A stretch of DNA of 64,000 nucleotides from Dehalococcoidia bacterium (GTDB lineage Bacteria; Chloroflexota; Dehalococcoidia; UBA6926). Shown here piece by piece: positions 58,395 through 60,610 of this stretch. Made by a program: the position numbers and the translations under genes. Numbering within the stretch: the stretch's first letter is position 1; each line of letters starts with the position of its first letter. The notes below the pieces were generated by a model. The model had not been told where the DNA came from. It did no database searches and saw only the letters and a list, made by a program, of their open reading frames with translations. Where the stretch lies: assembly GCA_965237465.1 (NCBI GenBank), contig OZ250138.1:1340110-1404109 (forward strand), written 5' to 3'.

Positions 58395-59858
58395 CTAGCT
58401 GTTCAGCTGGGCGAGGAGATACTCTTGTGGGCGGTCACCCTTAATGCGGTTGCAATGGGAACAAAGAAGTTGGAGGTTGTCCAGGTGGTCCGTCCCGCCT
58501 CGTGAACGCGGAACGACATGATCCACTTCCATAACTTTGAATGGGAAATCCATCTTACACCCTGAGCAGCGGCCTTCCTGTTGTCCATAAAGAACGTGCC
58601 TGTTCTTGCGGTAATGGATAGGCGCGCCAATATCTGTCCGCCGCGGGATGTCTGTCCGAGCCGTTACCAACCGGTCGTGAAATAGGCCGCCCATGGACTG
58701 TCGCAGCCGGTGATTCACGAGTTCAGTCGCCTTCGGCGATATATCTACGCCAACCCATTGTCGGCCCAAGTTCTCGGCTGCCACACATGCGGTAGCGCAA
58801 CCGCAGAAGGGGTCCAGTACAACGTCACCCTCATTGCTTGAAGCGAGAATAACGCGCTCAAGCAACGCCAAGGGCTTCTGTGTTGGGTAGCCAATTCGCT
58901 CATTACCCAAAACGGGCGCAATATCATCCCACAAGTCCTGGAGGGGAACCCCGGGCATGTCCACTGCGAATTGCATTAGCCGTGGCATTCCGGTCTCCCT
59001 GTGAACCAACTTTCCGTGATTCCAGAATGCGACCAGATTAGACATCGAATACGCCCAAAATCTGCCACTGTATGGGACTACAGCCTTGTACTCCCAACCT
59101 GGCTGAGGAATTTGGAACTCGTTGCTTAGGTCGGCCATCCACCTAGTCTTCTTATGCAGGGGCCGCTTGACGTGCCATTCATATGCTGTGTCGCCACCAG
59201 GCTTTGCGGCAGTTACGTCGGTCTCTTTATACCGCCGGCCGTCAGGAGCGGTGTGTCGGTATTCTGCTTGCAAGTAATCGTCCGTGTATGACATATATTG
59301 CGGGTTCCAAGTGTATTTGTGGGCCCGTGTATAGACCAGCAAGACATCTCGTATCTTGCCCGCCCTGCGCATTCCCTGCCTTGTGTCACTGTGGGCGCTG
59401 GAGCGTTTCCATGTCATCTCATTCAGGAACAGGCGAGAGCCGAATATCGCGTCCATCAAGAGCTTGAGGTAGTGCGAAGCAGTGGGGTCGCAGTGCAGAT
59501 AGATGCTCCCTGTCGGCTTGAGAATGCGGCGCAGCTCAAGCAGTCGGACGGCCATCATGCACAGGTAAGACTGCATTCCCTTGCCGTGCGTCAGGCTGGA
59601 TGCCTCAATAGTCCGGTAGATGGCGGGCTGCTCGTCGGCAATTAGTCCCATCCACGCGACGTCAAGGTCAGAAAGCGTCCATGCGTCCTTGAATGCGGCG
59701 CCGGCTGCCTTGCTACCCACGGGCGCCTCATAGTTGCGGTTGGAATTAAATGGCGGGTCGAGGTAGATGAGGTCGACTGTTTCCGAGTTCACGCCTCGAA
59801 GGACATCCAGGTTGTCCCCCGTCCAAATTGTCCTGTTCGTAAAGTTCGGCTCTGCCAT
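58395..59858 (-). CDS. beta-class DNA methyltransferase fused to a C-terminal HNH endonuclease domain
   Basis: N-terminal MTase core paralogous to 7753..9516 (identical block SIYLHCDPTASHYLKLL; DPPFNSN; YPTQKP; DPFCGCAT). C-terminal ~70 aa CSGCKMDFPFKVMEVDHVVPRSRGGTDHLDNLQLLCSHCNRIKG = HNH motif. Lower-GC patch. Confidence 0.8.
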   Translation of the reverse strand: MAEPNFTNRTIWTGDNLDVLRGVNSETVDLIYLDPPFNSNRNYEAPVGSKAAGAAFKDAWTLSDLDVAWMGLIADEQPAIYRTIEASSLTHGKGMQSYLCMMAVRLLELRRILKPTGSIYLHCDPTASHYLKLLMDAIFGSRLFLNEMTWKRSSAHSDTRQGMRRAGKIRDVLLVYTRAHKYTWNPQYMSYTDDYLQAEYRHTAPDGRRYKETDVTAAKPGGDTAYEWHVKRPLHKKTRWMADLSNEFQIPQPGWEYKAVVPYSGRFWAYSMSNLVAFWNHGKLVHRETGMPRLMQFAVDMPGVPLQDLWDDIAPVLGNERIGYPTQKPLALLERVILASSNEGDVVLDPFCGCATACVAAENLGRQWVGVDISPKATELVNHRLRQSMGGLFHDRLVTARTDIPRRTDIGAPIHYRKNRHVLYGQQEGRCSGCKMDFPFKVMEVDHVVPRSRGGTDHLDNLQLLCSHCNRIKGDRPQEYLLAQLNS

Positions 59859-59866
59859 GCAACACT

Positions 59867-60610
59867 CTACGCCGCCGCCGGCATCTCTTGCCAGACTCTC
59901 CCGTCGATGACGGCCTCATTGCCGGAGCGCTTGCCGCGGCGGCCGCCCCATTGCTTGAAGAAGAAGTCCACGTCCGCATCGGTGGACTGGTCGCGTAGGG
60001 CGAGGGCCCACTCTTCTTCCATCGGACGCGCACGCGGGCCGCTCTCGCCTCCCGCAATGACCCACTGGAGCGTGTCGTCCTCCAACCAGCGTGTCAGATC
60101 CAGCGACCCCAGCAGAGGCTCCGCGGAAACGAAGCGGATGCGAGCCGGTATGCGCCCTAATACCGTTAGGCGTGGGGCGTATTTCTGGTTTTCAACCGAT
60201 GTGCCGATCCACACGTTGGCTGGCCACTCGTCAAATTCTCTCGTCCCGCACTTGTCCCACCACCCCACCGCACGGCCCGGTCGCTTGGTCAAGACCTGAA
60301 ATATGTGCTGTGGCGCCCGCCGCATGACGTCAAAGACTTGCGACACGAATTCAAACGTAACGTGCGGATGGAAAAGGTCGGACATGCTGTTCACAAAGAC
60401 GCGGCGAGGTGTCTTCCACGACAATGGCGCGTTCAGGCGGTTCGGTAGCATCTGCACGATGTCCGGCGCGGCCTCATACCCGGGCACGCCCATCGCGTGG
60501 AGGCGTGGATAGAGAGCAAACATGTAGCAGTTGTCGCAGCCGGGGGAGACGCGAGTGCAGCCAGTGACCGGATTCCACGTCTCATCTGTCCACTCGATTG
60601 ACGACGCCAT
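59867..60610 (-). CDS. phage Gp37/Gp68-like (PF07505-like) three-Cys-motif protein
   Basis: Start at ATG 60608-60610 with AAGGGGAGG upstream. N-terminus [29 protein letters not shown] matches the family's IEWT...WNP..GC....GC..CY signature. 8-nt gap to the MTase-HNH gene on the same strand. Confidence 0.65.
   Translation of the reverse strand: [247 protein letters not shown]

What the first reader, a model, noticed from the sequence alone, without database searches (positions are those of the whole stretch)
58395..60610. Two-gene module: Gp37/Gp68-like three-Cys protein immediately upstream of an MTase-HNH fusion, in a lower-GC patch
A PF07505-like protein (N-terminal [25 protein letters not shown]) is separated by 8 nt from a beta-class MTase whose C-terminus is an HNH nuclease (CSGC...DHVVPRSRGG...NLQLLCSHCNRIKG). 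The Gp37/Gp68 family has no assigned function. Pairing it with a combined methyltransferase-nuclease points to a DNA modification/restriction or anti-restriction role, possibly phage-derived given the family name. GC across 58395-60700 is ~10 points below the window mean. The module is embedded between housekeeping tilS and purH-GT2.
Basis: partly seen in the sequence, partly recalled or inferred. Interest (0 to 1): 0.7.

Follow-up and report, generated by a model that had tools for sequence, protein, structure and literature searches.

The report
Radical-SAM gene with swapped methylase partner
A widespread uncharacterised radical-SAM-like gene (DUF5131) that normally sits beside a small methyltransferase-like partner (TcmP) here sits beside a DNA methyltransferase–HNH nuclease fusion instead, a rare partner swap that gives a testable clue to the pair's function but is not a recurrent new system.

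Summary
Both genes exist as described: DUF5131/PF07505 (59867-60610, minus strand), an 8-nt spacer, then a beta-class DNA methyltransferase with an intact C-terminal HNH (58395-59858). The GC claim is overstated. The region is 3.8 points below the window mean; only the MTase-HNH gene is low, and DUF5131 is at host GC.

The pair is not a general module.
- Of 80 species-level DUF5131 loci, none has the fusion beside it; 69 carry TcmP (PADLOC candidates PDC-M41/M30).
- Of 13 other MTase-HNH loci, none has DUF5131. They lie near a prophage portal gene, IS1595 transposases or toxin-antitoxin genes.

The locus is a variable slot. In 11 related Dehalococcoidia loci (tilS-DUF5131-X-GT2-purH), X is short TcmP in 5, long TcmP in 4 and MTase-HNH in 2 (this window and L246). 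Those two share junction sequence but differ in the target-recognition region and at saturated synonymous sites. DUF5131 stays under purifying selection.

TcmP has an RlmJ-like methyltransferase fold, so one amino-methyltransferase-type partner replaced another.

Best reading: a variant allele of the DUF5131-TcmP cassette in which a normally autonomous restriction-modification-like gene took the partner slot. Whether DUF5131 works with it is unresolved.

The parts
59867..60610 (-). DUF5131/PF07505 gene (247 aa plus stop). Radical-SAM-like enzyme; corresponds to the B subunit of PADLOC candidates PDC-M41/PDC-M30.
60527..60559 (-). Three-Cys motif C18-x6-C25-x2-C28 ([13 protein letters not shown]), the presumed [4Fe-4S] ligands.
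   Evidence: Read from the sequence. Invariant in alignment A1. DUF5131 is listed as a radical SAM subgroup in RadicalSAM.org/SFLD (PMC9477430).
60617..60625 (-). Shine-Dalgarno-like AAGGGGAGG, 6 nt upstream of the DUF5131 ATG.
   Evidence: Sequence.
60371..60490 (-). Approximate recombination breakpoint inside DUF5131 (codons ~40-80). Upstream of it the gene is as close to the nearest genome (L245) as the flanks are; downstream of it the gene is a divergent allele.
   Evidence: The proportion of synonymous differences (pS) is 0.27 in codons 1-40 and 0.54-0.85 in codons 81-240. It is 0.20-0.24 in p108, GT2 and purH.
59859..59866 (-). 8-nt spacer (AGTGTTGC) between the DUF5131 stop and the MTase-HNH ATG. 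It has no Shine-Dalgarno site and no room for a promoter, so co-transcription and translational coupling are inferred.
   Evidence: Sequence. L246 has a comparable 9-nt spacer. Stand-alone homologues have 400-640 nt of upstream non-coding DNA.
58395..59858 (-). Beta-class DNA MTase-HNH fusion gene (487 aa plus stop). It occupies the slot that tcmP holds in related genomes.
   Evidence: PF01555 plus PF01844/PF14279. At least 120 homologue clusters share the architecture. PDB sequence matches include CcrM, MboIIA, RsrI, DpnA and EcoP15I Mod. GC 55.6%.
59748..59759 (-). MTase catalytic motif IV, DPPF (residues 34-37). Probably N6-adenine type; N4-cytosine is not excluded.
   Evidence: Invariant in alignment A2. 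The assignment to adenine rests on general knowledge of DPPY/F versus SPPY/F motifs.
58959..59381 (-). Target-recognition region (residues ~160-300). Unrelated to the corresponding region of the L246 copy and about 77% identical to that of the stand-alone homologue P0002.
   Evidence: Pairwise alignment. Identity by segment.
58788..58823 (-). SAM-binding motif I (VVLDPFCGCATA, residues 346-357).
   Evidence: Alignment A2 invariants.
58398..58610 (-). HNH nuclease domain (residues ~417-487) with CxxC...DH...N...CxxC-N.
   Evidence: PF01844 E 1e-13. C431, C434, D446, H447, H458, N461, C466, C469 and N470 are invariant in A2. 92% identical to L246, at most 82% to all other homologues.

Best explanation
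The locus is a rare allele of the widespread DUF5131-TcmP two-gene cassette (PADLOC candidates PDC-M41/PDC-M30). It sits at a fixed chromosomal site (tilS-small ORF-DUF5131-X-GT2-purH) in a Dehalococcoidia clade. In this allele the usual partner TcmP, an RlmJ-like methyltransferase-fold protein, has been displaced by a beta-class DNA methyltransferase (DPPF motif, probably N6-adenine) fused to an intact HNH nuclease. That fusion belongs to a large family of genes that otherwise stand alone and move around. It most likely still acts on its own as a single-chain restriction-modification-like enzyme. One target-recognition region would read a short DNA motif, the methyltransferase would mark host DNA, and the HNH would nick or cut unmarked DNA. 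DUF5131 is a resident, host-adapted radical-SAM-type enzyme. It is co-transcribed with the fusion and probably translationally coupled to it, and it remains functional. Shown here: domain identities, partner statistics, synteny, the swap, shared junctions, the exchange of the recognition region, and purifying selection. Inferred: enzymatic activities, autonomy of the fusion, co-transcription.
For: DUF5131 and TcmP are true partners.
- 69 of 80 loci from many phyla have TcmP adjacent. It was identified as TIGR04474 (193 bits, cutoff 53) and as PDC-M41A (5.5e-80); the long form is PDC-M30A.
- A natural DUF5131-TcmP fusion protein exists (P0414).

The slot is variable. Across 11 syntenic loci, X is short TcmP in L002, L003, L245, L250 and L251, long TcmP in L247/8, L249, L254 and L255, and MTase-HNH in the window and L246.

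The fusion appears autonomous.
- Homologues at 82%, 77% and 66% identity lie next to HicB/PemK toxin-antitoxin genes, a prophage portal gene and an IS1595 transposase. None has DUF5131 nearby.
- 0 of 13 fused loci have DUF5131, and they share no recurrent neighbour.
- The same window holds a paralogous MTase fused to an Mrr-type nuclease instead of HNH, with no DUF5131 nearby (7711-9516).
- The recognition region was exchanged while the catalytic parts were kept, which fits one recognition region serving both activities.
- All HNH and MTase catalytic residues are invariant.

The partner gene is foreign-looking in every allele: X is 48-56% GC, while DUF5131 is 61-62%.
Against: The arrangement is not a fresh accident.
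- The window and L246 share junction sequence (AACAGCTAGGGCTA at the 3' end) and a private HNH sub-lineage (92% identical to each other, at most 82% to others).
- Their MTase-HNH genes nevertheless differ at saturated synonymous sites.
- DUF5131 stays at dN/dS of about 0.1 in both.

Long co-retention in a tightly coupled operon (8-9 nt spacers, no Shine-Dalgarno site) is what a working pair would also show. Two further DUF5131 operons carry a PF01555 MTase directly adjacent, in addition to TcmP (L015, L028). TcmP itself has an adenine-methyltransferase-like fold, so the replacement could be functional. No enzymatic activity was tested.
Confidence: 0.5

Rival explanations
1. The two genes form a genuine new two-component variant. 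DUF5131 uses the MTase-HNH as a surrogate for TcmP. The partner supplies sequence-specific nucleic-acid binding, base flipping or methylation, and here also cleavage. DUF5131 performs radical chemistry on the presented base or sugar. Together they would act as one modification/restriction system on DNA.
For: - The fusion sits in the same operon slot as TcmP, with the same tight spacing.
- The arrangement has one origin and has persisted long enough for synonymous saturation, with DUF5131 kept at dN/dS of about 0.1.
- PF01555 MTases are directly adjacent to DUF5131 in L015 and L028.
- The imported recombination tract carries the 3' two-thirds of DUF5131 together with the partner gene.
Against: - Only 2 linked cases were found, both descended from one event at one chromosomal site.
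- None of 80 other DUF5131 loci and none of 13 other MTase-HNH loci show the pair.
- DUF5131 sequences do not cluster by partner type.
- The fusion family plainly works without DUF5131 elsewhere.
- TcmP and the beta-class MTase show no detectable profile similarity (hhalign probability 1%).
Confidence: 0.33
2. The juxtaposition has no function for DUF5131. A selfish MTase-HNH gene destroyed the cassette by replacing tcmP, and DUF5131 is now a relic awaiting decay.
For: TcmP is the near-universal partner and is even fused to DUF5131 in one protein. No TcmP was found in the 64-kb window. Some DUF5131 genes appear to be orphans (L004, L057).
Against: DUF5131 is full length with all invariant residues. 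Its dN/dS is 0.08-0.10 in both MTase-HNH-linked copies, although these alleles are old. It is more conserved across the clade (86-89% identity) than purH (76-78%).
Confidence: 0.1
3. One reading: a phage-derived anti-restriction or modification module inserted between housekeeping genes.
For: DUF5131 occurs in 180 of 50,697 phage records, typically beside the integrase. MTases of this subfamily are common on viral contigs. One MTase-HNH homologue lies next to a prophage portal gene.
Against: There are no phage genes, tRNA genes, integrase or flanking repeats at the locus. DUF5131 has host GC and sits at the same site in at least 11 genomes. None of the 80 viral-contig MTases carries the HNH.
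Confidence: 0.04

Closest known systems
[quoted passage not shown]
   Same: The DUF5131 gene is a full-length, high-scoring member. It occupies the same chromosomal site and operon position as in relatives that carry TcmP.
   Different: The A subunit (TcmP) is absent from the locus and from the 64-kb window. A beta-class DNA MTase-HNH takes its place. The PDC systems themselves are untested candidates, predicted because they are embedded in BREX, DISARM and Type I RM loci (bioRxiv 10.1101/2024.01.29.577857).
Single-chain restriction-modification enzymes (Type IIC/IIG, e.g. the MmeI family; comparison from general knowledge)
   Same: A methyltransferase and a nuclease share one polypeptide with a single recognition region. 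That region is swapped between otherwise conserved copies, as expected when one domain sets both specificities.
   Different: Characterised Type IIG enzymes have an N-terminal PD-(D/E)XK nuclease and a gamma-class MTase. Here the MTase is beta-class with a C-terminal HNH. No characterised member of this architecture was found in the searchable literature, and cleavage is untested.
Beta-class N6-adenine/N4-cytosine DNA MTases (CcrM, M.MboIIA, M.RsrI, DpnA, EcoP15I Mod)
   Same: PF01555 match, beta-class motif order (IV-recognition region-I), a DPPF motif, and PDB sequence matches with E 1e-15 to 1e-8.
   Different: All NCBIfam equivalog scores are far below cutoff (for example CcrM 81 bits against 830). 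The recognition region is larger, and an HNH is added.
Radical SAM superfamily (spore photoproduct lyase, lipoyl synthase, viperin)
   Different: The Cys spacing is Cx6Cx2C rather than the canonical Cx3Cx2C. The model has low confidence around the Cys loop. No PDB relative is detectable by sequence, and the chemistry is unknown.
RlmJ / RsmD-type amino-methyltransferases (for TcmP, the displaced partner)
   Different: About 16% identity. Motif IV is DPF/DPY, not DPPY. The substrate is unknown.

Membership tests
PF07505 / DUF5131 (formerly phage Gp37/Gp68) | Full-length match to the family profile above the gathering score | tested here: met
   298.8 bits against a cutoff of 28.9, profile 2-243 of 243.
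PF07505 / DUF5131 | N-terminal three-cysteine motif | tested here: met
   C18-x6-C25-x2-C28, invariant in A1.
Radical SAM superfamily | Partial TIM-barrel fold similar to solved radical SAM enzymes | tested here: met
Radical SAM superfamily | [4Fe-4S] cluster binding and reductive SAM cleavage | not testable with these tools
   Needs biochemistry. The Cx6Cx2C spacing is non-canonical.
PADLOC PDC-M41 / PDC-M30 (DUF5131-TcmP pair) | B subunit (DUF5131) present | tested here: met
   PDC-M41B 2.6e-90 and PDC-M30B 1.6e-87.
PADLOC PDC-M41 / PDC-M30 (DUF5131-TcmP pair) | A subunit (TcmP, TIGR04474) adjacent | tested here: not met
   The neighbour is an MTase-HNH, with no PDC-M41A or M30A hit among the PADLOC matches listed for the protein or its three segments. 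A TcmP HMM finds nothing in the 64-kb window. Syntenic relatives do have TcmP.
PADLOC PDC-M41 / PDC-M30 | Anti-phage activity | not testable with these tools
   The source paper describes the 145 PDC systems as untested.
TIGR04471 radical SAM mobile pair protein A | Score above the curated cutoff | tested here: not met
   50 bits against a cutoff of 355. This is distant similarity only.
Beta-class DNA amino-methyltransferase (PF01555) | Profile match with motif IV (D/S)PP(Y/F) N-terminal to motif I FxGxG | tested here: met
   133 bits against a cutoff of 26.7. DPPF at residues 34-37 and DPFCGCAT at about residue 350.
HNH nuclease (PF01844) | Profile match with the catalytic His/Asn and zinc-binding cysteines intact | tested here: met
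   51.6 bits against a cutoff of 21.4. D446, H447, H458, N461, N470 and four Cys are invariant across 14 homologues.
Single-chain (Type IIC/IIG-like) restriction-modification enzyme | MTase and nuclease in one polypeptide with a shared recognition region | tested here: met
   Architecture. The recognition region is swapped between conserved catalytic parts.
Single-chain (Type IIC/IIG-like) restriction-modification enzyme | Sequence-specific cleavage blocked by the enzyme's own methylation | not testable with these tools
   Requires expression, methylome analysis and cleavage assays.
Prophage or mobile-element cargo | Phage or mobility genes, an att site or tRNA gene, or flanking repeats nearby | tested here: not met
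   Housekeeping genes flank the locus for 10 kb on each side. There are no meaningful repeats. The nearest tRNA genes are about 21 kb away. The site is syntenic in at least 11 genomes.

The most novel reading that the evidence does not exclude
DUF5131 works with whatever adenine-methyltransferase-type partner occupies its downstream slot. In this allele it cooperates with a sequence-specific DNA MTase-HNH. That would mean the 37,000-cluster DUF5131 family acts on DNA, and that TcmP is its interchangeable targeting subunit. The system would be a radical-SAM-assisted modification/restriction system with a swappable specificity module.
Probability: 0.3. Interest if true: 0.8.

Novelty: new variant of a known kind. 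Interest (0 to 1): 0.5.

Why it matters
DUF5131 is a very large radical-SAM-like family: 37,221 clusters at 50% identity with E<=1e-3. It occurs in bacteria and in phages and has no known chemistry. Its pairing with TcmP is catalogued only as an untested defence candidate.

This locus is a natural experiment. At one chromosomal site, the conserved DUF5131 gene is combined with three kinds of partner, one of which is an unmistakable sequence-specific DNA methyltransferase-nuclease. If the pairing is functional, it points to DNA, and probably adenine, as the substrate of the whole family, and it offers a tractable construct to test.

If the pairing is not functional, the locus is still a clean example of allele exchange at a defence-type slot anchored by a conserved gene. 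It also draws attention to a widespread beta-MTase-nuclease fusion family (HNH or Mrr-type) for which I found no characterised member.

Tried and rejected
1. MTase-HNH as the PADLOC partner subunit. No PDC-M41A or M30A hit appeared among the PADLOC matches listed for the whole protein or for three segments of it.
2. Profile-profile similarity between TcmP and the beta-class MTase. hhalign gave probability 1%, so no homology is detectable beyond the shared motif I.
3. Sequence search of the PDB with DUF5131, as a single sequence and as a profile. Nothing usable was found.
4. Mobile-element signatures. There are no sigma-70-like promoters, no meaningful terminator and no flanking direct or inverted repeats around the pair.
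5. Co-adaptation of DUF5131 with partner type. DUF5131 sequences do not cluster by partner, either by dN or by identity in residues 81-247.
6. Literature. The library has no paper on DUF5131 or TcmP function. They appear only in tables. No characterised beta-MTase-HNH enzyme was found.
7. A crude longest-ORF neighbour census was too noisy in high-GC genomes. It was replaced by an iterated TcmP HMM.
8. JGI metagenome and IMG/VR scans reached only distant MTase relatives (at most 56% identity), most of them without the HNH. They say little about the close family.
9. The rest of the source genome could not be searched for a tcmP gene encoded elsewhere.
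Full report
OBSERVATION. Both ORFs exist as described. Window 59867-60610 (minus strand, 247 aa) matches PF07505/DUF5131 over the whole profile (E 3.8e-89). It begins [29 protein letters not shown], which gives a C-x6-C-x2-C motif. A Shine-Dalgarno-like AAGGGGAGG lies 6 nt upstream of its ATG. Eight nucleotides after its stop codon begins a 487-aa ORF (58395-59858). That ORF matches PF01555 (N6/N4 DNA methylase, residues 28-381) and PF01844/PF14279 (HNH, residues 431-484). 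ENA gene calls on the source contig, from a Chloroflexota/Dehalococcoidia metagenome assembly, agree with both ORFs. The GC statement is wrong in size. The window is 61.7% GC, the finding region 57.9%, the MTase-HNH gene 55.6% (GC3 0.65) and DUF5131 62.4% (GC3 0.77), which is at background. A 108-aa ORF lies between tilS and DUF5131.

WHAT THE TWO PROTEINS ARE. DUF5131 also matches the B subunits of two PADLOC candidates, PDC-M41B (2.6e-90) and PDC-M30B (1.6e-87), and phrog_2045, which has no known function.
- RadicalSAM.org/SFLD lists DUF5131 as a radical SAM subgroup (Megacluster-5-2, beside spore photoproduct lyase at 5-3) (PMC9477430).
- The family is very large: 37,221 clusters at 50% identity with E<=1e-3.
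- The methyltransferase has DPPF N-terminal to the SAM motif DPFCGCAT, which is beta-class order. It resembles CcrM, M.MboIIA, M.RsrI, DpnA and EcoP15I Mod by sequence. All curated NCBIfam scores are far below cutoff.
- In 14 homologues the HNH Asp-His, Asn and four zinc-binding cysteines are invariant.

CENSUS FROM THE DUF5131 SIDE. A scan of one genome per species returned 80 loci at 46-81% identity, from Chloroflexota, Actinomycetota, Planctomycetota and others. None has an MTase-HNH within 6 kb. An iterated HMM started from the gene downstream of DUF5131 in L002 finds a homologue directly adjacent in 69 of 80 loci. It lies downstream on the same strand, convergent in the 20 loci where it is on the opposite strand (mostly actinomycetes), or upstream.
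- That gene is TcmP: TIGR04474 at 193 bits against a cutoff of 53 and PADLOC PDC-M41A at 5.5e-80. A longer form of 343-382 aa matches PDC-M30A.
- One database protein, P0414 (558 aa), is a DUF5131-TcmP fusion.
- In phages, DUF5131 occurs in 180 of 50,697 records, typically beside the integrase. Gordonia phage Jablanski gp43, annotated 'methyltransferase', is a TcmP by my HMM.
- The PDC systems are explicitly untested candidates, chosen because they are embedded in BREX, DISARM or Type I RM loci.

CENSUS FROM THE MTase-HNH SIDE. At least 120 protein clusters at 60-82% identity share the PF01555+HNH architecture. Their sources name them only 'DNA methyltransferase'.
- Three were looked up. L083 (82%) lies among HicB/PemK toxin-antitoxin genes, L082 (77%) beside a prophage portal gene, and L084 (66%) beside an IS1595 transposase. 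Each has hundreds of bases of upstream non-coding DNA and no DUF5131.
- Scans of JGI metagenomes and IMG/VR gave 160 more loci of the MTase subfamily. Ten of them, all from metagenomes, carry the HNH.
- Of the 13 fused loci outside this lineage, none has DUF5131. The only recurrent neighbours are an IS1595 transposase (L084, L090) and a tandem second copy (L100, L101, L114).
- The window itself holds a paralogue (7711-9516, 36% identical, same motif blocks) fused to an Mrr-type PD-(D/E)XK domain instead of HNH. It also has low GC and no DUF5131 nearby.
- The family therefore behaves as an autonomous, mobile MTase-nuclease gene.

THE LOCUS IS A VARIABLE PARTNER SLOT. Related Dehalococcoidia share the order tilS-small ORF-DUF5131-X-GT2-purH. 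X is short TcmP in L002, L003, L245, L251 and L250 (frameshifted there). It is long TcmP in L247/L248, L249, L254 and L255. It is MTase-HNH in this window and in L246 (458 aa, 9-nt spacer).
- The nearest genome, L245 (purH 93%, GT2 96% identical), has TcmP. L246 is distant (purH 76%).
- The window and L246 fusions are 62% identical overall. They are about 85-90% identical in the N-terminal 80 residues and 92% in the HNH, with an identical tail. Residues ~160-300, the presumed recognition region, are unrelated.
- No other homologue exceeds 82% identity in the HNH.
- The 3' junction with GT2 (AACAGCTAGGGCTA) is identical in both genomes and the 5' junction is similar. The arrangement therefore arose once. 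Synonymous sites are nevertheless saturated between the two copies (pS 0.6-0.9).
- DUF5131 is more conserved across the clade (86-89%) than purH (76-78%) or tilS (57-59%). Its dN/dS is 0.07-0.16 in all pairs, including the two MTase-HNH-linked copies.
- Against L245, synonymous divergence is 0.2-0.3 in p108, GT2, purH and DUF5131 codons 1-40, but 0.54-0.85 in codons 81-240. The exchanged tract thus runs from inside DUF5131 through the partner gene.
- In all seven loci measured, X is low in GC (TcmP 48-52%, MTase-HNH 55.6%) while DUF5131 sits at host GC.
- No repeats, promoter-like sites or tRNA genes mark the locus.

HOW IT MOST LIKELY WORKS. Shown: DUF5131 and TcmP form a conserved pair. Here TcmP is replaced by a member of an otherwise free-standing MTase-HNH family. 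The replacement is old, has been passed between lineages by recombination through the conserved flanks, and has since changed its recognition region.
- Inferred, my best reading (0.5): the MTase-HNH acts alone as a single-chain restriction-modification-like enzyme. One recognition region directs both methylation of host DNA and HNH cutting of unmarked DNA. DUF5131 remains a working radical-SAM enzyme that merely shares the transcript.
- Main rival (0.33): DUF5131 uses the new neighbour as a surrogate partner. Supporting points are long co-retention, the tight coupling without a Shine-Dalgarno site, the adenine-methyltransferase-like fold of TcmP, and two other operons with a PF01555 MTase directly beside DUF5131. 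These are L015 (DUF5131-MTase-TcmP) and L028 (MTase-DUF5131-TcmP).
- Against the rival: the pair traces to a single event, the fusion works without DUF5131 elsewhere, DUF5131 shows no partner-specific sequence signal, and TcmP and the beta-class MTase are not detectably homologous.
- A relic DUF5131 (0.1) fits poorly with the strong purifying selection. A phage-derived anti-restriction module (0.04) is contradicted by the synteny.

COMPARISON AND NOVELTY. The locus fails the PADLOC PDC-M41/M30 definition because the A subunit is missing. The fusion resembles Type IIC/IIG enzymes in logic but not in domain class or order. I found no characterised beta-MTase-HNH or DUF5131 protein in the paper library. 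I therefore rate it a new variant of a known, itself uncharacterised, kind. Interest is moderate. The pair as such is a lineage-specific allele. It is also a natural partner-swap experiment on a very large orphan enzyme family, and it suggests concrete tests.

Noticed in passing
window 7711-9516 (+): A second beta-class PF01555 MTase, 36% identical to the MTase-HNH and with the same conserved motif blocks. It is fused to a C-terminal Mrr_cat/PD-(D/E)XK nuclease domain instead of HNH. GC is 57%, it lies near the lowest-GC stretch of the window, and it sits next to a GT2 gene and a Peptidase_MA-like gene. No DUF5131 is nearby. The true start is probably the Met in 'MTTPHTNKLHFGDNL'.
   Followed up: partly
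protein P0414 (558 aa; from the representative search): A natural fusion of DUF5131 (residues ~1-240) with TcmP (residues ~270-558). This is direct support that the two normally act together.
   Followed up: partly
L015 6001-8603 and L028 4761-7826: Three-gene operons that combine a PF01555 DNA MTase with DUF5131 and TcmP. L015 has DUF5131-MTase-TcmP; L028 has MTase-DUF5131-TcmP, with an MTase of the same subfamily as the window's.
   Followed up: partly
L047 7920-9323 (-): A GmrSD_N (DUF262) plus HNH gene, resembling a Type IV restriction enzyme, lies directly upstream of tcmP and convergent with DUF5131 in a Nocardioides genome. This is a defence-island-like context.
   Followed up: no
L084 3042-3971 and L090 814-1764; L100, L101, L114: Homologous IS1595-type transposase genes lie beside MTase-HNH genes in two unrelated loci (L084, L090). 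Tandem duplicate MTase-HNH genes occur in three JGI metagenome contigs (L100, L101, L114).
   Followed up: no
window 60371-60490 (inside DUF5131): Relative to the nearest genome (L245), synonymous divergence rises from background (pS about 0.25) to near saturation (0.54-0.85) after roughly codon 40-80. DUF5131 is therefore a mosaic, and its 3' two-thirds were exchanged together with the partner gene.
   Followed up: yes
L245, L251, L002, L247, L249 (partner genes downstream of DUF5131): In every syntenic locus measured, the partner gene has much lower GC (TcmP 48-52%, GC3 0.49-0.56) than DUF5131 (61-62%, GC3 0.74-0.77). The low-GC patch is a property of the slot, not of this allele.
   Followed up: yes
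window 60701-61027 (-): A 108-aa ORF with an Arg/Gly-rich N-terminus and a hydrophobic C-terminal segment, with no Pfam hit. It overlaps the tilS stop codon and is conserved in position in L002, L003, L245 and L255. Other relatives (L247-L251) have a 63-aa ORF at this position.
   Followed up: no
L007, L046, L059: Two DUF5131 copies lie within one 12-kb locus. In L007 each copy has its own TcmP, and the first TcmP appears frameshifted.
   Followed up: no
window 36644-37019 (-): A cluster of three tRNA genes (Cys-GCA, Leu-GAG, Trp-CCA). It is unrelated to the finding.
   Followed up: no
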